The translations under genes and the position numbers were made by a program. DNA of 64,000 nt from an uncultured Oscillospiraceae bacterium. GTDB lineage: Bacteria > Spirochaetota > Spirochaetia > Sphaerochaetales > Sphaerochaetaceae. Shown in pieces: positions 13,360 through 18,849 of this stretch. The notes beneath the pieces were generated by a model that saw nothing but the letters and a program-made list of their open reading frames with translations, was not told the DNA's origin and did not search any database. The stretch covers positions 10,931 to 74,930 of the forward strand of contig CAVHKW010000086.1 in assembly GCA_963636745.1 (NCBI GenBank), written 5' to 3'. Position 1 is the stretch's first letter. Each line of letters begins with the position of its first letter.

Positions 13360-14195
13360 CGCTCTTTGAGTTGAAGAAAGCATTACTGGGTATCGAAAAT
13401 GATCTGGAGGACCCCTATCTTGAAGTAAGAGTCCTCCTGACAAGTCTTGGTTCCTCCCCCTCGGATCAGATCGCTTACTCCGACAGAACTGTCGATGAAG
13501 ATATTACAAAGAAAGCATTCGAGGATTTCAGGAGACGAATAGAGGGTACCCCGATGGCCTACATAACACACTCGAAAGAGTTCTACGGCCATGACTTCTA
13601 CGTAGACGAGAGCGTTCTCATTCCACGTCCCGACACGGAGACGATAGTTGACAAGGCAATCAATATATATAAAGAAAAGCGGTATAACGGAAGAATTCTC
13701 GACCTCTGTACCGGAAGCGGTGCCATAGCAGCATCCATCTCCAGTGCTCTCGGTCTTCCCGTCTCTTTCAGCGACATATCGAGAGAGGCTTTATCAATAG
13801 CGGAGAAAAACTACATTAATATTACAGGCCGAAAGGAAACGGATGCACGACTGGGATCCCTCTTCGAGCCCTGGAAGGGAGAAAAGTTCTCCCTGATCGC
13901 AACAAACCCTCCCTATCTGACAGAGGAGTGGTTTATAGAAACGGAGAGAAGTGTCAAAAGAGAGCCTCATGTCGCTCTTGTCAGCGATAACACAGACGGC
14001 CTCGATATAATTAAAAAGATTGTCTCATCTTCTCCTCAAGTATTGGAAAAAAATGGTACACTTTTAATTGAATGTGACTACAGACAGATAGATAACCTTT
14101 CTTCCCTATTGAAGGAAAACGGTTTCAGCTCGATCGGGATAGAAAAGGATATGGGTGGACTGGAAAGAGTGGTGTATGGAGAATATAAAGGCTGA
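13356..14195 (+). CDS. prmC: Release factor glutamine N5-methyltransferase (HemK/PrmC)
   Basis: 279 aa. SAM-binding DLCTGSGAI and catalytic NPPY (IATNPPYL). 4-nt overlap with prfA. Confidence 0.85.
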   Translation: MTLFELKKALLGIENDLEDPYLEVRVLLTSLGSSPSDQIAYSDRTVDEDITKKAFEDFRRRIEGTPMAYITHSKEFYGHDFYVDESVLIPRPDTETIVDKAINIYKEKRYNGRILDLCTGSGAIAASISSALGLPVSFSDISREALSIAEKNYINITGRKETDARLGSLFEPWKGEKFSLIATNPPYLTEEWFIETERSVKREPHVALVSDNTDGLDIIKKIVSSSPQVLEKNGTLLIECDYRQIDNLSSLLKENGFSSIGIEKDMGGLERVVYGEYKG

Positions 14196-16239
14196 AGAAA
14201 AAGAAGAAGCAAAGGCAATCGAAATCCCGAACAAGGAACTTGTCGACAGATTTGTTTCCAGAATTCTCAATTACTCGGATATAGACAAGGCCAAGATAAG
14301 CTCGGCAGCTGTCTTTGCGGCCAGGAAACACGGAGACCAGAAGCGTAAAAGCGGGGAGCCGTACCTCATTCATCCGATCGCCGTCGCCGAGATATTGATG
14401 AGCTTCAATATGGATGCCGACACAGTCTGCGCAGGGCTTCTCCACGACACAATTGAAGACACAGGCACAACAGAAGAGGAGATTGCATCCCTCTTCGGTA
14501 AGGAAGTTGCACAGATGGTCCAGGCGGTGACAAAGATCACCAGAATCACCCAGGACAAGTCCATCCAGGAAGCGGAAACCATAAAAAAGATGTTCTTCGC
14601 CATGAGCAAAGACCTCAGGGTAATACTCATTAAGCTTGCCGACAAGCTCCACAACATGAGGACGCTCTCGGGCCTCAGCAGCGAAAGACGAATAGCATAC
14701 GCAAAAGACTGTCTCGATATCTTCGCTCCAATTGCCGACAGCCTCGGTATGCAGACGCTGAAGAGCGAACTCGAAGACCTTTCCCTCAAGGCATTGAAAC
14801 CTGAAAGCTATGAATACATAAACACATACCTGCTTGAAAGAAAAGGCGAGTACACAGCATTCATCAAACAGGTGGCCAGAGCCATCGAAGAAGCATGCAA
14901 GAAAGAGGGTCTCGATAATATAGAGGTAACGGGAAGAGTAAAGCACGCCTACTCCATCTACATGAAAATCAAGAAGAGGAAGAAGGAGATAGACGAGATC
15001 TACGATATCCTGGGCATCCGTGTCATATGTAATACAACAGTCGAATGCTACACCATTCTCGGCATCATCCACTCAATGTGGATCCCGATCGAAGGCAGAT
15101 TCAAAGATTACATCGCAATGCCCAAAGCCAACAACTATCAATCCCTCCATACGACGGTTCTCGGGCCGCAGTCGAGGCATCTCGAGATCCAGATAAGAAC
15201 ATGGGAGATGCATAAGACGGCGGAGGAAGGTGTTGCTGCACACTGGGCTTATAAAGCTGCAAGCGGAAGCGAAAGCGGTGCCTGGAAAAGCATGGACTCC
15301 ATCAACTATCAGAAGATAGTCAAGAAAATCAAATCCTGGTCAAAGGAGATAGAGCAGAGCGAAGACTACATGGAGGAGATAAAGAACGAGCTTTTGAAAG
15401 ACTCCATAGTCGTCTTTACACCACAGGGCCATGTCATAGAACTACCTGTCGGATCGACTGCACTTGACTTTGCCTATAAAATCCACACCGAGGTCGGTAA
15501 CCACTGCTCGGGAGCGAAGGCGGACGGCTCAATCATCCCGTTGAATAAGCCTCTCGCCAACACCCAGATAGTCGAAATCATGACATCACCCTCGGCTCAC
15601 CCTAACCAGCAGTGGCTTGAGGCTGCAGCGGCAACCTCCACAAAGAAGAAGATAAAAGCATGGCTCAACAGATATCAGAGCGCAAACGTACCGGAGGTGA
15701 ATAAGCCGGTAGTAGCACAGCCGCTGCCAAAGAAAGTGCCGCAGCCTACCAATCCCGCAAAGCTCATCAACGGCACACTCAGCTATGTCTCCCCCGAAAC
15801 AAAAGGAACACTGATGGTCGGAGAGGACAGCAACATAATGTATTCATTTGCCAAGTGCTGCTCTCCTATGCAGGGCGATGACGTTGTGGCATATATCACG
15901 AGGGGACGCGGCTACATCATACACCGCAGAGACTGTTCAAACCTCAGCCATATGGCGGAGGTGAATGAGAGAACTGTCTCTGTAAAGTGGACCGGAGATG
16001 AATTGATGAAGCACTACCATGTTACGACAAAGATCGATCAGGATATCTTCGGACAGATCGAAAATGCCGTAAGAACACATGGTGGAAGACTCCGTAAGGG
16101 TACTCTCGGCATTGACGGCAACAGGCTCACGGGCGACTTCACGATAATCGCGGAAAGCGAAGATGCAATCAGAAAATGCACCTCCGCAATAAGAACAATA
16201 CCGACTGTCATCGAATTGACAGGGATAGCGGGAAAGTGA
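14155..16239 (+). CDS. rel: Bifunctional (p)ppGpp synthetase/hydrolase (RelA/SpoT homologue)
   Basis: 694 aa. HD hydrolase domain (HGDQKRKSGEPYLIHP, HDTIEDT), synthetase domain (RVKHAYSIYMKIKKR, DILGIRVI), and TGS and ACT-like C-terminal regions. The start is GTG 14155 or ATG 14176; both overlap the prmC end. Confidence 0.9.
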   Translation: MDWKEWCMENIKAEEKEEAKAIEIPNKELVDRFVSRILNYSDIDKAKISSAAVFAARKHGDQKRKSGEPYLIHPIAVAEILMSFNMDADTVCAGLLHDTIEDTGTTEEEIASLFGKEVAQMVQAVTKITRITQDKSIQEAETIKKMFFAMSKDLRVILIKLADKLHNMRTLSGLSSERRIAYAKDCLDIFAPIADSLGMQTLKSELEDLSLKALKPESYEYINTYLLERKGEYTAFIKQVARAIEEACKKEGLDNIEVTGRVKHAYSIYMKIKKRKKEIDEIYDILGIRVICNTTVECYTILGIIHSMWIPIEGRFKDYIAMPKANNYQSLHTTVLGPQSRHLEIQIRTWEMHKTAEEGVAAHWAYKAASGSESGAWKSMDSINYQKIVKKIKSWSKEIEQSEDYMEEIKNELLKDSIVVFTPQGHVIELPVGSTALDFAYKIHTEVGNHCSGAKADGSIIPLNKPLANTQIVEIMTSPSAHPNQQWLEAAAATSTKKKIKAWLNRYQSANVPEVNKPVVAQPLPKKVPQPTNPAKLINGTLSYVSPETKGTLMVGEDSNIMYSFAKCCSPMQGDDVVAYITRGRGYIIHRRDCSNLSHMAEVNERTVSVKWTGDELMKHYHVTTKIDQDIFGQIENAVRTHGGRLRKGTLGIDGNRLTGDFTIIAESEDAIRKCTSAIRTIPTVIELTGIAGK

Positions 16240-16282
16240 AACCCAATCGGAGAACGTAATCAAAAAAAACCAACTTTTCATC

Positions 16283-16337
16283 AAAAGTGTCACTTTTCTA
16301 GCCACTTTTGCTATTTCTTTTTCCATTACACTATATT
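16283..16337 (+). promoter_or_regulatory. Palindrome AAAAGTG-T-CACTTTT plus sigma70-like promoter (TTGCTA-N18-TATATT), copy 1
   Basis: Palindrome 16283-16297, extra half-site 16303-16309, -35 at 16308-13, -10 at 16332-37. Confidence 0.35.
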
Positions 16338-16428
16338 CAGCGCTGTAAGCGGATAAGGGTGTCACCTTGCTGTTCGGGAACAAAAGACGACTTTGTCGTT
16401 CTTATTCTTTGAAAAGGAGGTGAGCTGT

Positions 16429-16575
16429 ATGAATTTGAAGTTTATTATTTTGATTCTCTCAACAGTCAATGACGTTTTCGAGCTTGCTCGGAATTTCAGC
16501 TGGATGATGAAGTGTTTCAAAAAAGTAAAAACCAAAATAAATACCGCCCTACGCTCCACCAAAGCTAGGCGGTAA
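16429..16575 (+). CDS. Small basic protein, 48 aa (candidate type I toxin-like peptide), copy 1
   Basis: ATG preceded by AAGGAGGTGA with 8-nt spacing. Peptide: MNLKFIILILSTVNDVFELARNFSWMMKCFKKVKTKINTALRSTKARR. It is the internal-Met version of track ORF 16393-16575. Confidence 0.45.
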   Translation: MNLKFIILILSTVNDVFELARNFSWMMKCFKKVKTKINTALRSTKARR

Positions 16576-16710
16576 TACAACAAACCGAATAGCAAGGGGC
16601 ACCTCTTTACAGCGCCTTCTTGTAAAAACAATATAACACTGCCCGCAAAATTTGAAAAGACATAATCTCCACTTCAAAGAAAGTAATTTCTTGAAGAAGC
16701 AGAGCGCTGT

Positions 16711-16819
16711 CTTATCGAATGAATAAACTCCCTCTCAATACACCCGGCATGTCATAGACACAAAACCGGATCTCATTCCAGAGGAAACGGCGACGGTATT
16801 ATGAATCTGTAGTCAAAAG
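16711..16819 (-). pseudogene. Decayed duplicate of the 3' end of the CBS-pyrophosphatase gene
   Basis: Aligns to 17243-17370. Reads LTTDS*YRRRFLWNEIRFCVYDMPGVL..., whereas the intact gene reads LTTDSKYRRRFLWNEIRSCAYEMPGVL. It has a net 19-nt deletion. Confidence 0.8.
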
Positions 16820-16869
16820 TGTCACTTTTCTAGCCACTTTTGATGTTTCTTTTTCCATTACACTATATT
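16815..16869 (+). promoter_or_regulatory. The same palindrome plus promoter-like element (TTGATG-N18-TATATT), copy 2
   Basis: Identical to copy 1 except for two bases inside the -35 hexamer. Confidence 0.35.
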
Positions 16870-16960
16870 CAGCGCTGTAAGCGGATAAGGGTGTCACCTT
16901 GCTGTTCGGGAACAAAAGACGACTTTGTCGTTCTTATTCTTTGAAAAGGAGGTGAGCTGT

Positions 16961-17107
16961 ATGAATTTGAAGTTTATTATTTTGATTCTCTCAACAGTCA
17001 ATGACGTTTTCGAGCTTGCTCGGAATTTCAGCTGGATGATGAAGTGTTTCAAAAAAGTAAAAACCAAAATAAATACCGCCCTACGCTCCGGAAAAGCTAG
17101 GCGGTAA
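16961..17107 (+). CDS. Small basic protein, 48 aa, copy 2 (T44G)
   Basis: Same SD and ORF as copy 1. The only difference is codon 44 (ACC versus GGA). Confidence 0.45.
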   Translation: MNLKFIILILSTVNDVFELARNFSWMMKCFKKVKTKINTALRSGKARR

Positions 17108-17238
17108 ACCAAATACCGAATAGCAAGGGGCACCTCTTTACAGCGCCTTCTTGTATAGACAATATAACACTACCCGTAGAATTTGAAAAGATATAACTTC
17201 CACTTTCAGGATAAGCAATTAAATGGACAGGTAAAGAG

Positions 17239-18849
17239 CTATTCTATCGAATGAATAACCTCCGGGAGAAGCTGCTTCTTCCGGCTTAACACACCCGGCA
17301 TTTCATAGGCACATGATCGGATCTCATTCCAGAGGAAACGCCTGCGATATTTTGAATCCGTAGTCAAAAGAATGCTTTCCTCCTTCAATACATCGGTAAT
17401 CATAAGCATAGCCCAGTCAAGGCCGCGGTTGCCCTTTATCGTATTGAGAGTTTCTAGATACTTCTCTTCATAACTTGCTATGTCGCTGAGCGTCGTCACC
17501 TCACACTGTCCGATTGCAAACTTCACTCCCTTCTCGCTGTAAGTCTTGAAGTCTCCCTCTATTGCAGAGACAGGTTCTCTGTTTGCCAGACTGTCGATTA
17601 CGGAGAAGAGTTTGGCTCCGAATGCGTGTATATCGTATTCACCCGATATCGCGGCAAGGGCTCCGGCTGCTGTCTTATCGATTTGAGTCGTTGTCGGACT
17701 CCTGAGGACAAGAGTATCAGACATGATACCTGTCAAGAGAACACGGGCTGTAGTTTCATCCGGGACGATATTATGTCTCAGGTATTGCTGATATATTATA
17801 GTACATGTACTTCCGAGAGGCTCTGCATCTATGAATATCGGGAGACTCGTCTTCAGGGCATCAAGCCTGTGGTGATCAATAATCTCGATAACAGATGCCT
17901 CCTCTATTCCCCTTATACTCTGCCCCACTTCATTATGGTCTACAAGAATAACACTGTATTGAGGTTTCTTTAGAAAACATCTCCTTGTTACATAGCCGAC
18001 AAACTCATCGTCGTCGAATACGGCAAGGCCTCTCAGGAGGGAGGACGAGAGCGCTTCCCTCGCATCGTCGAAGAAATCATTGACGCCGAGGCGCGGTCCC
18101 TGTTTACCCATAATCGTCCTCACGCTAGGTGTCATTCTCAGTCTTCTCTCAACTTCAGCTGTCTGAAGCTCCGTCAGGTACACAGTTCCCTCATAAGACG
18201 AGAAGTCTATATCCTCATAACTTGACGAAGCTGTAATGATGATGGCCTCCACACCCTTCCTCATCGCATACTCTATATAGCGCTTACGGTAGCCTATGAC
18301 GACCACAGTATCTTTAGAGCCGTCGACAAAGTGACAGAAATCCTCATAAGCTGCAGCTCCTGCAAGGATGGAGGCGTTAAAGCTCTCCTTCCCTCTTTTG
18401 ATAATCCTGCCGGGTATGACAGTCTCGATATTTGATACGAGGAAATCATAATGAGGAGTCTCCTCTCTGTTATCTCTCAAGAACCAGGAAGTAATATCGT
18501 CAACACTCAAAAGACCGACGAAGGAACCCTTGTCATAGACGGGGAAAGCCGATGGATGTGTCTCGTTATATGCTTTGACAAGATTATATATCGGAGCCTC
18601 TGCTTCAACCTTCTCCGTCGGAAGCAGCATAACATCCCTCACCTTCGGTTTAACGTCCCTCATATATTCAGGAACAGGCACCCCTAACAGACCGAACTGT
18701 TTCTCGACTCCTTCACTCATATGGCCACACCTTACGGCATGATAGCGGTTATCTCTGTCTATATGATTCTTCAACTCTGCATAACCGTAAGCCGAACAGA
18801 TGCTGTCAAGGTCCGGATTGCGGTGTCCTGTGATGTAAATATCCTTCAT
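17239..18849 (-). CDS. DHH-CBS-DHHA2 protein (CBS-domain family II inorganic pyrophosphatase-like)
   Basis: 536 aa. N-terminal HRNPDLDSICSA, DHH motif (ILVDHNE), internal CBS pair and a DRTGG-like segment, and a C-terminal DHHA2-like region. Confidence 0.7.
   Translation of the reverse strand: MKDIYITGHRNPDLDSICSAYGYAELKNHIDRDNRYHAVRCGHMSEGVEKQFGLLGVPVPEYMRDVKPKVRDVMLLPTEKVEAEAPIYNLVKAYNETHPSAFPVYDKGSFVGLLSVDDITSWFLRDNREETPHYDFLVSNIETVIPGRIIKRGKESFNASILAGAAAYEDFCHFVDGSKDTVVVIGYRKRYIEYAMRKGVEAIIITASSSYEDIDFSSYEGTVYLTELQTAEVERRLRMTPSVRTIMGKQGPRLGVNDFFDDAREALSSSLLRGLAVFDDDEFVGYVTRRCFLKKPQYSVILVDHNEVGQSIRGIEEASVIEIIDHHRLDALKTSLPIFIDAEPLGSTCTIIYQQYLRHNIVPDETTARVLLTGIMSDTLVLRSPTTTQIDKTAAGALAAISGEYDIHAFGAKLFSVIDSLANREPVSAIEGDFKTYSEKGVKFAIGQCEVTTLSDIASYEEKYLETLNTIKGNRGLDWAMLMITDVLKEESILLTTDSKYRRRFLWNEIRSCAYEMPGVLSRKKQLLPEVIHSIE

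What the first reader, a model, noticed from the sequence alone, without database searches (positions are those of the whole stretch)
16281..17370. Tandem 532/551-bp duplication downstream of rel, with sharply uneven decay between its parts
Unit 1 is 16282-16813 and unit 2 is 16814-17364. TCAAAAG sits at all three junctions (16281-87, 16813-19, 17364-70), which fits a microhomology-type tandem duplication. The unit includes the last ~42 codons of the minus-strand pyrophosphatase gene. The redundant copy (16711-16819) has decayed: it has a premature stop (LTTDS* versus LTTDSKYRRRF...), a net 19-nt deletion and many substitutions. In contrast, 16282-16557 and 16814-17089 (276 bp covering the promoter-like region and small ORF) differ at only two positions (16311, 16313). 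A 40-nt block holding the 3' helix arm (16585-16624 = 17116-17155) is identical between copies. The spacer between the stop codon and that arm, and everything after the arm, has diverged. Near-identity beside neutral decay within one duplication implies selection or gene conversion acting on the small-ORF module.
Basis: seen in the sequence. Interest (0 to 1): 0.6.

Follow-up and report, generated by a model that had tools for sequence, protein, structure and literature searches.

The report
Duplicated toxin-antitoxin-like module, partly homogenised
A small-peptide gene with its own antisense RNA (it looks like a type I toxin-antitoxin module) was duplicated in tandem long ago between two housekeeping genes, and later copy-correction between the two copies made their front halves identical again while the rest kept drifting apart.

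Summary
Units 16281-16812 and 16813-17363 are a head-to-tail duplication, and TCAAAAG sits at all three junctions. A 244-nt stretch is identical in both units. There are only 2 differences in the first 277 nt, while the 3' halves are 45-88% identical and carry a 19-nt deletion.

The duplication looks real and old. Unit 1 ends in a dead copy of the pyrophosphatase 3' end, 82% identical to the live gene. That copy keeps ancestral residues that the live gene has since changed.

Each unit holds a complete module: a palindrome plus promoter, a 5'UTR locked to a 3' arm by a covarying long-range helix, a 48-aa helical and basic ORF, and a conserved minus-strand promoter and terminator for a ~95-nt antisense RNA. 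Related modules occur in 10 of 81 genomes of the genus (Sphaerochaetaceae MAGs) and in one genome of another genus, often as arrays of 2-3 or more. No Rfam, Pfam or NCBIfam family matches.

Selection alone does not explain the uneven decay. At columns that vary in the family, the copies differ at 1 of 198 in the 5' part and 12 of 69 in the 3' part (P=4e-7). A second genome shows the same mosaic. Gene conversion plus purifying selection on the RNA elements is the best reading.

The scan's sibling notes on this window had already flagged the hok-like layout, the antisense promoter and the palindrome.

The parts
14155..16239 (+). rel (RelA/SpoT-family) gene, the upstream flank
   Evidence: Pfam HD_4, RelA_SpoT and TGS.
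16281..16812 (+). Duplication unit 1 (532 nt): one complete module plus a dead copy of the pyrophosphatase 3' end
16813..17363 (+). Duplication unit 2 (551 nt): one complete module plus the live pyrophosphatase 3' end
16281..16287 (.). TCAAAAG junction microhomology, also at 16813-16819 and 17364-17370
   Evidence: Read directly from the sequence.
16283..16297 (.). Perfect 7-1-7 palindrome AAAAGTGTCACTTTT (copy 2 at 16815-16829), part of a promoter cassette shared with other genes
   Evidence: Four exact sites in the own genome and none for the reversed control pattern. Found only in this genus among genome contigs. Also lies upstream of a conserved 177-178-aa secreted-protein gene.
16308..16337 (+). 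Promoter-like TTGCTA-18-TATATT for the peptide mRNA (copy 2: TTGATG at 16840-16869). The only two differences in the 5' half (16311, 16313) fall in the -35 hexamer.
16314..16557 (+). 244-nt tract identical to 16846-17089; inferred gene-conversion tract
16339..16624 (+). Predicted peptide mRNA (copy 2: 16871-17155). The 5' arm (16340-16378) pairs with the 3' arm (16583-16624).
   Evidence: MFE -93.5 kcal/mol, z -5.35. Across 12 family members, 90% of cells are paired, 11 of 30 pairs carry compensatory changes, 0 of 500 shuffles reach this, and slid controls pair at 38-53%.
16429..16575 (+). 48-aa ORF MNLKFIILILSTVNDVFELARNFSWMMKCFKKVKTKINTALRSTKARR with SD GGAGG at 16416-16420 (copy 2: 16961-17107, T44G)
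   Evidence: Open and 46-48 aa long in all 15 family copies. dN/dS mostly 0.2-0.8. AlphaFold predicts a single helix, residues 3-47, pLDDT 80.5. No Pfam or NCBIfam family.
16542..16574 (.). Hairpin TACCGCCC...GGCGGTA over the stop codon (copy 2: 17074-17106). On the minus strand a U-run follows it, making it the antisense terminator.
   Evidence: The stem and the adjacent A-run are invariant in 15 copies, although the two subfamilies read them in different frames.
16528..16623 (-). Predicted ~95-nt cis-antisense RNA (copy 2: about 17060-17154), complementary to the last ~10 codons, the hairpin and the 3' arm
   Evidence: Position of the promoter and the terminator fold. Expression was not tested.
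16630..16658 (-). Antisense promoter TTTTCA-17-TGTTATATT (copy 2: 17161-17189)
   Evidence: Both boxes are conserved in all 15 family copies while the spacer varies.
16700..16819 (-). Dead copy of the pyrophosphatase 3' end (premature stop, 19-nt deletion)
   Evidence: 98 of 120 bases identical to the live copy. It keeps the ancestral CVYD where the live gene has CAYE.
17239..18849 (-). CBS-domain DHH/DHHA2 pyrophosphatase gene, the downstream flank; its last 44 codons lie inside unit 2
   Evidence: Pfam DHH, DHHA2 and CBS.

Best explanation
Shown directly: a 551-nt segment was duplicated head to tail between two TCAAAAG words. The segment comprised one complete small-ORF/antisense module plus the last 44 codons of the convergent pyrophosphatase gene. 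The result is two intact modules and one redundant gene fragment.

Inferred: the duplication is old. The fragment has decayed about 18% and carries a stop and a 19-nt deletion, and the spacer that is neutral in both copies is about 35% diverged.

Inferred: after most of that divergence had built up, a gene-conversion event (or an unequal exchange within the array) copied about 244-277 nt from one unit onto the other. The copied stretch covers the promoter, the 5'UTR and nearly the whole ORF, and its divergence was reset to 0-2 differences.

Inferred: the rest of the module diverged at the rate expected for constrained sequence, about 12%. The parts that must work stayed conserved: the 3' arm, which has to pair with the now identical 5' arm; the terminator stem; and the antisense -10 and -35 boxes.

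[quoted passage not shown] A structured ~286-nt mRNA has its ends locked together by a long-range helix and its SD mostly paired, which keeps translation of a 48-aa helical, basic peptide low. A convergent ~95-nt antisense RNA, with its own promoter and terminator, base-pairs with the mRNA 3' end. This probably triggers duplex cleavage and frees the 5' arm (CACCUU) to cover the SD.
For: Repeat geometry and junction words.

Age and reality of the duplication: the dead copy is 82% identical to the live gene. The live gene is 76% identical to its closest ortholog L030 and 66% to L020. The dead copy keeps the ancestral V and D residues.

Related species: the rel/pyrophosphatase gap holds no module in most of them and exactly one, next to the pyrophosphatase, in L020.

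Uneven divergence beyond constraint: win1/win2 identity by segment is 96, 100, 100, 91, 55, 100 and 86%, whereas the unconverted paralog pair L020/L052a is mostly 82-96% (50% in the short linker). At family-variable columns the copies differ at 1 of 198 against 12 of 69, P=4e-7, and the permutation test on the longest run gives P<1e-5. Synonymous sites in this ORF are free to change, with dS 0.72 between L020 and L052a.

Independent recurrence: L052a and L052b in another genome are 100% identical over the 5'UTR, ORF, hairpin, linker and 3' arm (304 nt), but only 52% identical over the antisense promoter.

What the module is: the long-range helix covaries, and its G-U pairs fit only the plus strand. 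The antisense promoter boxes and the terminator are conserved. The SD is predicted mostly paired in 12 members.

Arrays of the module: G016, G079, G087 and G080, plus a 3-unit array in another genus that encodes a classic 23-aa hydrophobic peptide with the same RNA layout.

Literature: tandem duplication within one intergenic region is a recognised habit of type I TA loci (PMC2887945).
Against: No read-level check was possible. The window is a contig of a short-read MAG with 117 contigs and 80% completeness. An assembler can erase SNPs between two near-identical repeat copies, so the '100%' in the middle of the tract may be overstated.

No same-species strain was found for comparison.

With only two copies, conversion cannot be separated from unequal crossing-over or from replacement by an allele from another strain.

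The identical 40-nt 3' arm lies beyond diverged sequence, so it needs either strong selection or a second conversion patch.

Toxicity of the peptide and expression of either RNA are untested. The window's peptide carries charged residues in its N-terminal helix and is not a clear transmembrane segment. Folding predicts no obvious translationally active state.
Confidence: 0.7

Rival explanations
1. There was no conversion. The two 5' halves stay identical only because purifying selection on the promoter, the structured 5'UTR and the ORF is very strong.
For: The region is functional. The long-range helix covaries, the SD and start codon are conserved, and the ORF is always open.
Against: 198 of the 277 columns vary among family members, yet only 1 of those differs between the two copies, against 12 of 69 in the 3' part. 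Synonymous sites change freely in the family (dS 0.72 for L020/L052a; dN/dS 0.2-0.8). Orthologous modules are only 34-72% identical over the same segments. Even at one tenth of the neutral rate about 9 differences are expected and 2 are seen (P=0.007).
Confidence: 0.05
2. Assembly effect. The tandem may be real, but the perfect identity of the 244-nt core comes from de Bruijn-graph repeat collapse or bubble removal. In the extreme case the whole tandem is a mis-join of strain variants.
For: The genome is a fragmented short-read MAG. Related MAG contigs break inside such arrays, for example G016:C111 and C56. Reads could not be examined.
Against: The junction between the dead gene end and the palindrome (16800-16830) is a novel join that must exist in reads. 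The dead copy shows real evolutionary decay and retains ancestral residues, which no assembler can invent. My own inference from how such graphs work, not tested: differences within one k-mer of a repeat boundary or of another difference cannot be collapsed. Yet 16281-16368 and 16503-16557 (assuming k=55) hold only 2 differences in about 143 nt, still far below the 12% seen in the 3' part. The same mosaic appears in a second MAG, although probably from the same assembly pipeline.
Confidence: 0.12
3. The homogenisation came from a different recombination route: unequal crossing-over in a formerly larger array, or replacement of part of one unit by an allele imported from another strain.
For: Arrays of 3 or more units exist in relatives. 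Such exchanges leave the same mosaic.
Against: Nothing separates this from simple intrachromosomal conversion. No third copy or near-identical donor was found in the assembled genome.
Confidence: 0.1
4. The module is not a toxin-antitoxin pair. It is an ordinary small-protein gene with a convergent terminator-sharing sRNA, or the ORF is incidental to a structured RNA.
For: There is no homology to any known toxin family. The peptide's helix carries D, E, R and K residues. dN/dS is only moderately below 1. The C-terminal tail is read in two frames.
Against: The ORF is open at 46-48 aa in 15 of 15 copies and has a strong SD. The module combines a 5'-3' lock, a mostly paired SD, a cis-antisense RNA with its own conserved promoter, multicopy tandem arrays and patchy lineage-specific distribution. 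That combination is the signature used to find type I TA loci (PMC2887945). The distant relative in G174 encodes a textbook hydrophobic 23-aa peptide.
Confidence: 0.2

Closest known systems
ibs/sib, ldr/rdl and zorO-orzO/zorP-orzP type I TA loci of E. coli (Fozo et al. 2010, PMC2887945)
   Same: They are small-peptide/antisense modules repeated in tandem within one intergenic region. They are lineage-specific duplications, and the same intergenic region is shorter in strains that lack them.
   Different: There is no sequence or structural homology. Those antitoxins overlap or pair with the 5' part of the mRNA. I found no paper linking gene conversion or concerted evolution to type I TA arrays in two literature searches.
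hok/Sok and AapA1/IsoA1 (Arnion et al. 2017, PMC5416894)
   Same: The full-length toxin mRNA is closed by a 5'-3' long-distance interaction, and the SD is occluded.
   Different: In those systems the antisense RNA covers the 5' region or translation start, and 3' trimming activates the mRNA. Here the antisense RNA covers the 3' arm itself. No Rfam hit.
txpA/RatA, bsrG/SR4, bsrE/SR5 and yonT/SR6 of Bacillus subtilis (review PMC8167048)
   Same: [quoted passage not shown] The peptide is 40-60 aa with a basic C-terminus. For SR4, binding at the 3' end changes the structure around the SD.
   Different: There is no homology. One family member gives a sub-threshold YonT hit (E=0.018). To my knowledge those mRNAs are not described as closed by a long 5'-3' helix, and they come from a different phylum.
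Concerted evolution of bacterial paralogs by RecA-dependent gene conversion (e.g. tufA/tufB, rRNA operons; from established knowledge)
   Same: A tract of near identity inside older, diverged paralogous DNA.
   Different: Here the tract is short (about 250 nt) and lies in a tandem pair only 532 nt apart. The converted unit is a regulatory RNA/peptide module.

Membership tests
Microhomology-mediated tandem duplication | Two head-to-tail homologous units, with the same short word at both outer ends and at the junction | tested here: met
   Units of 532 and 551 nt. TCAAAAG is at 16281, 16813 and 17364.
Microhomology-mediated tandem duplication | Physical support for two copies (spanning reads, depth) | not testable with these tools
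No other assembly of this strain was found.
Gene conversion / concerted evolution between paralogs | A near-identical tract flanked on the same molecule by homologous but clearly older (diverged) sequence | tested here: met
   2 differences in 277 nt, against 12 in 103 nt and 18-35% divergence further on.
Gene conversion / concerted evolution between paralogs | The contrast is not explained by site-specific constraint | tested here: met
   Fisher test on family-variable columns, P=4e-7, and the permutation test on the longest run. dS is 0.72 in an unconverted paralog pair.
Gene conversion / concerted evolution between paralogs | Segment-wise phylogenetic incongruence, or population data that dates the event | not testable with these tools
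   There are only two copies and no conspecific strains. An independent case of the same mosaic exists in L052a/b.
Type I toxin-antitoxin system | A small (<60 aa) protein whose expression is toxic | not testable with these tools
   A conserved 46-48-aa ORF with a strong SD is present. Toxicity needs an expression experiment.
Type I toxin-antitoxin system | Hydrophobic or transmembrane peptide with a charged C-terminus | tested here: inconclusive
   A single predicted helix and a Lys/Arg-rich tail, but the window's helix contains K4, D15, E18 and R21. The G174 relative is clearly hydrophobic.
Type I toxin-antitoxin system | An antisense RNA gene with its own promoter and terminator that base-pairs with the toxin mRNA | tested here: inconclusive
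   An extended -10 promoter and an intrinsic terminator are predicted on the minus strand. Both are conserved in 15 of 15 copies regardless of reading frame. Transcription has not been observed.
Type I toxin-antitoxin system | Toxin mRNA folding that limits translation | tested here: met
   A covarying 30-bp 5'-3' helix. The probability that the SD is unpaired is 0.06-0.57 in the full-length mRNA and 0.08-0.26 with the 3' end masked.
Known type I families (hok, AapA, Ldr/Fst, Ibs, TxpA, BsrG, YonT and others) | Sequence or covariance-model match | tested here: not met
   Rfam gives only noise at E>1. Pfam and NCBIfam give nothing above cutoff. Only 5 protein clusters match among 5.8 billion.

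The most novel reading that the evidence does not exclude
These modules are an undescribed type I toxin-antitoxin family of Sphaerochaetaceae (Spirochaetota). It combines a hok/AapA-like 5'-3' mRNA lock with a Bacillus-like 3'-overlapping antisense RNA, and it grows into arrays. Within arrays, recurrent gene conversion homogenises the toxin transcript (promoter to 3' arm) and stops at the antisense transcription start, so each copy keeps its own diverging antitoxin promoter. The toxins would then evolve in concert while the antitoxins are regulated independently.
Probability: 0.3. Interest if true: 0.6.

Novelty: new variant of a known kind. Interest (0 to 1): 0.45.

Why it matters
As far as I could find, no type I toxin-antitoxin system has been described in spirochaetes. 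These loci are invisible to annotation pipelines. This locus supplies a ready-made family: 15 or more copies, a covariance model, a conserved antisense promoter and a covarying mRNA lock.

It also records how such arrays evolve. A dated duplication has a neutral internal clock in the dead gene fragment, sitting next to a tract that has been reset. That shows directly that copies in an array do not evolve independently. This matters when copy trees are used to date duplications or to argue for selection on duplicated TA loci.

The duplication itself is ordinary biology.

Tried and rejected
- Exact-protein look-ups to find other assemblies of the strain (pyrophosphatase, Rel and both 48-aa peptides) found nothing on record. 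Searches failed because I gave coordinates in the wrong frame.
- Two metagenome-contig scans, one module-specific and one with the palindrome cassette, each returned 0 hits.
- Searches of the plasmid and phage collections found no match, so there is no sign that the module is carried on a known mobile element.
- Rfam returned only chance hits (snoRNA sn2524, psRNA6) at E>1.
- Tandem Repeats Finder reported nothing, because the period exceeds its 500-nt limit.
- I considered a type III TA (an RNA repeat array plus a protein toxin) and rejected it. The repeat unit here contains its own ORF and promoters, and no ~170-aa toxin gene follows.
- I looked for a translationally active mRNA state, as in hok and AapA1. 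Folding with the 3' end masked or removed leaves the SD paired, so no activation path can be proposed from folding alone.
- My first regex for extracting the modules was wrong and was corrected.
Full report
**1. The observation**

The region was read directly and checked with a repeat finder and a global alignment. Unit 1 is 16281-16812 and unit 2 is 16813-17363. They are head-to-tail copies, and TCAAAAG stands at 16281-87, 16813-19 and 17364-70.

Identity is very uneven. Positions 16281-16557 and 16813-17089 differ only at 16311 and 16313, and 244 nt (16314-16557) are identical. The block 16583-16624 equals 17114-17155. The loop of the stop-codon hairpin, a 9-nt linker and everything after 16624 have diverged. 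Forty-nt windows there fall to 0.45-0.88 identity, and there is a net 19-nt deletion.

Tandem Repeats Finder found nothing because its period limit is 500 nt.

**2. Is the duplication real, and how old is it?**

The window is a contig of a 117-contig MAG that is 80% complete. Titles of related records place it in the Sphaerochaetaceae. Four exact-protein look-ups and two metagenome scans found no other assembly of this strain.

Internal evidence nevertheless argues for a real and old event:
- The redundant pyrophosphatase 3' end (16700-16819, minus strand) matches the live copy at 98 of 120 bases (82%). It has a premature stop and a 19-nt deletion.
- The live copy is 76% identical to its closest ortholog (L030) and 66% to L020.
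- The dead copy keeps CVYD, as in the orthologs, where the live gene now reads CAYE. An assembler cannot create that pattern.
- The 7-nt word inside the pyrophosphatase gene (CTTTTGA on the coding strand) is a synonymous variant seen only in this lineage, and both copies share it. The microhomology therefore existed before the duplication.

**3. The same site in relatives**

rel and the CBS-DHH pyrophosphatase are convergent neighbours across the genus and beyond. The gap between them is 7-142 nt in several species and 0.8-2.7 kb in others.

A profile built from the module found it at this site in only one other species, L020 (G086). There it is a single copy abutting the pyrophosphatase. The other expanded gaps hold unrelated genes.

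So related species carry 0 or 1 copy at this site and this genome carries 2. The duplication is specific to this lineage.

**4. What was duplicated**

Each unit carries a complete module, made up as follows:
- **Palindrome and promoter.** A perfect palindrome AAAAGTGTCACTTTT sits next to a promoter-like TTGCTA-18-TATATT.
- **mRNA with locked ends.** The predicted mRNA is about 286 nt, and its first ~40 nt pair with its last ~40 nt (MFE -93.5 kcal/mol, z -5.35).
- **Small ORF.** A strong SD precedes a 48-aa ORF.
- **Stop-codon hairpin.** A hairpin lies over the stop codon.
- **Antisense unit.** On the minus strand there is an extended -10 promoter (TTTTCA-17-TGTTATATT, 16658 to 16630). Its transcript would run back through the 3' arm and end at that same hairpin followed by a U-run, giving about 95 nt.

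Fifteen family copies from eight loci were aligned:
- The long-range helix is 90% paired across 12 members, and 11 of 30 pairs show compensatory changes. None of 500 shuffles reaches this, and slid controls pair at 38-53%. G-U pairs place the helix on the plus strand.
- The antisense -10 and -35 boxes, the terminator stem and the A-run (the U-run on the minus strand) are invariant.
- The two subfamilies translate that A-run and stem in different reading frames (KYRPKL... against NTALRS...). The constraint is therefore on the nucleic acid, not on the peptide tail.
- The ORF is open at 46-48 aa in all copies, and dN/dS is mostly 0.2-0.8.
- AlphaFold predicts one helix (pLDDT 80.5).
- The SD is predicted mostly paired in every member. 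When the 3' end is masked, as it would be with the antisense RNA bound, the freed 5' arm (CACCUU) pairs with the SD in the window's copies.

**5. Family distribution**

A covariance model of the 3' part (R1) finds the module in 10 of 81 species genomes of the genus, at 1-6 copies each. Arrays occur in G016 (3 or more copies, with contig breaks inside the array), G079 (3 copies), G087 (2 copies) and G080, and G086 has a pair 883 nt apart.

In 150 other genomes of the family, one genome from another genus (G174) has four weaker hits. Three of them form a ~420-nt tandem array with the same layout, and that array encodes a textbook hydrophobic peptide, MSDYELLSLILMILAIIIAASKK.

The searches for known relatives came back empty or nearly so:
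- Rfam, Pfam and NCBIfam: no match.
- Plasmid and phage collections: no match.
- A search of 5.8 billion proteins: only 5 clusters match.

**6. Why the decay is uneven**

Three classes of sequence lie side by side:
- **Neutral DNA.** The spacer that is neutral in both units (16661-16710) is about 65% identical. The dead gene end against the constrained live end is 82% identical.
- **The 3' part of the module (16558-16660).** It differs at 12 of 103 positions. The differences sit in the hairpin loop, the linker and the spacer of the antisense promoter. The stem, the 3' arm and the promoter boxes are intact. That is what purifying selection on a functional module of this age should leave.
- **The 5' 277 nt.** It differs at 2 positions.

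Selection cannot account for the 5' part:
- 198 of those 277 columns vary among family members, yet only 1 of them differs between the copies, against 12 of 69 in the 3' part (Fisher P=4e-7).
- The longest difference-free run, 186 of 267 variable columns, was never reached in 100,000 permutations.
- Synonymous sites are free to change in this ORF. dS is 0.72 between L020 and L052a, and that unconverted pair is mostly 82-96% identical across segments.
- Even at one tenth of the neutral rate about 9 differences are expected, and 2 are seen.

The simplest account is a gene-conversion or unequal-exchange event that reset 244-277 nt well after the duplication.

The identical 3' arm is best explained by strong constraint. 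It is the most conserved segment in the family, and it must pair with a 5' arm that is now identical in both copies. A second conversion patch cannot be excluded.

The same mosaic occurs independently in G086. L052a and L052b are 100% identical from the 5'UTR to the end of the 3' arm (304 nt). They are 94% identical in the promoter and 52% in the antisense-promoter region, and their flanks are unrelated.

**7. Caveat**

A de Bruijn assembler can erase SNPs between two near-identical repeat copies, so the perfect identity of the tract's interior is not secure.

By my own reasoning about such graphs (not tested), differences within one k-mer of a repeat boundary or of another difference cannot be collapsed. 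The boundary zones (about 143 nt if k=55) contain only the two known differences. The contrast with the 3' half therefore survives this caveat.

**8. Comparison with known systems**

Tandem duplication inside one intergenic region is a recognised habit of type I TA loci such as ibs/sib, ldr/rdl and zor/orz, and it has even been used as a search criterion for them (PMC2887945).

The 5'-3' lock resembles hok and AapA1, where the full-length mRNA is inert (PMC5416894). The 3'-overlapping convergent antisense RNA resembles txpA/RatA and bsrG/SR4, and for SR4, binding at the 3' end remodels the SD region (PMC8167048). I have not seen the two features described together.

No sequence or model match ties the module to any of these families, so it is filed as working like a type I TA, not as a member of a known family. 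Toxicity and transcription are untested.

Literature searches found no type I TA described in spirochaetes. They also found no paper linking gene conversion or concerted evolution to type I TA arrays.

**9. Verdict**

This is an old microhomology-type tandem duplication of a probable type I toxin-antitoxin module. One copy of the co-duplicated gene end is decaying neutrally. The RNA elements are under purifying selection. A later conversion event homogenised the promoter, 5'UTR and ORF.

The evolutionary processes are ordinary. The module family itself appears to be undescribed. Interest 0.45.

Noticed in passing
L098:1-1260 (G174:C94, another genus of the same family): Three tandem ~420-nt units of a related module. 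Each encodes a 23-aa hydrophobic peptide (MSDYELLSLILMILAIIIAASKK) and has a 5'-3' helix, a stop-codon hairpin ACCGCCC...GGCGGT and a strong minus-strand TTGACA-17-TGaTATTTT promoter. Divergence between units 1 and 2 is spread fairly evenly.
   Followed up: partly
G000:C39 (L004:1492-1560); also L055, L057, L063, L066 and L011: The same cassette (CAAAAGTGTCACTTTTCTAGCCAyTTTT plus promoter) lies 54 nt upstream of the ATG of a conserved 177-178-aa secreted protein with no Pfam family. In L012 it lies upstream of a RelB-family antitoxin gene. This suggests a small regulon, or a shared strong promoter with an operator for an unknown regulator.
   Followed up: partly
Gap between rel and the pyrophosphatase gene in loci L019-L046: The convergent rel/pyrophosphatase gap is a variable spot. 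It is 7-142 nt in some species. L022, L024, L028, L029 and L046 hold a 464-aa AAA_14+DUF4143 ATPase there (L026 holds a shorter, 324-aa homolog). L020 holds a weak HigB-like toxin plus an HTH_3/M78-like pair. L032 and L036 hold lipoprotein-like ORFs.
   Followed up: partly
window 16527-16575 and the aligned family copies: The Lys-rich C-terminal tail of the peptide is read in two different frames in the two subfamilies, while the underlying A-run and hairpin nucleotides are invariant. The coding sequence doubles as the U-tract and stem of the antisense terminator.
   Followed up: yes
window 17074-17239, minus strand: No terminator-like site lies between the pyrophosphatase stop (17239) and the copy-2 antisense unit. 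The pyrophosphatase transcript probably runs through the antisense RNA sequence and ends at the module's hairpin. That would give copy 2, but not copy 1, extra antisense RNA.
   Followed up: no
L052:4906-6200 (G086): Two modules 883 nt apart flank an unrelated ~470-nt stretch. They are identical from the 5'UTR to the 3' arm, but their antisense promoters and flanks have diverged. This is a second, independent case of body-only homogenisation.
   Followed up: yes
Record titles of loci L019-L046: Many MAG records that carry this clearly Sphaerochaetaceae-type locus are titled with unrelated taxa (Faecalibacterium, Comamonas, Muribaculaceae, Ruminococcus and others). The organism labels of that MAG set look unreliable.
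   Followed up: no
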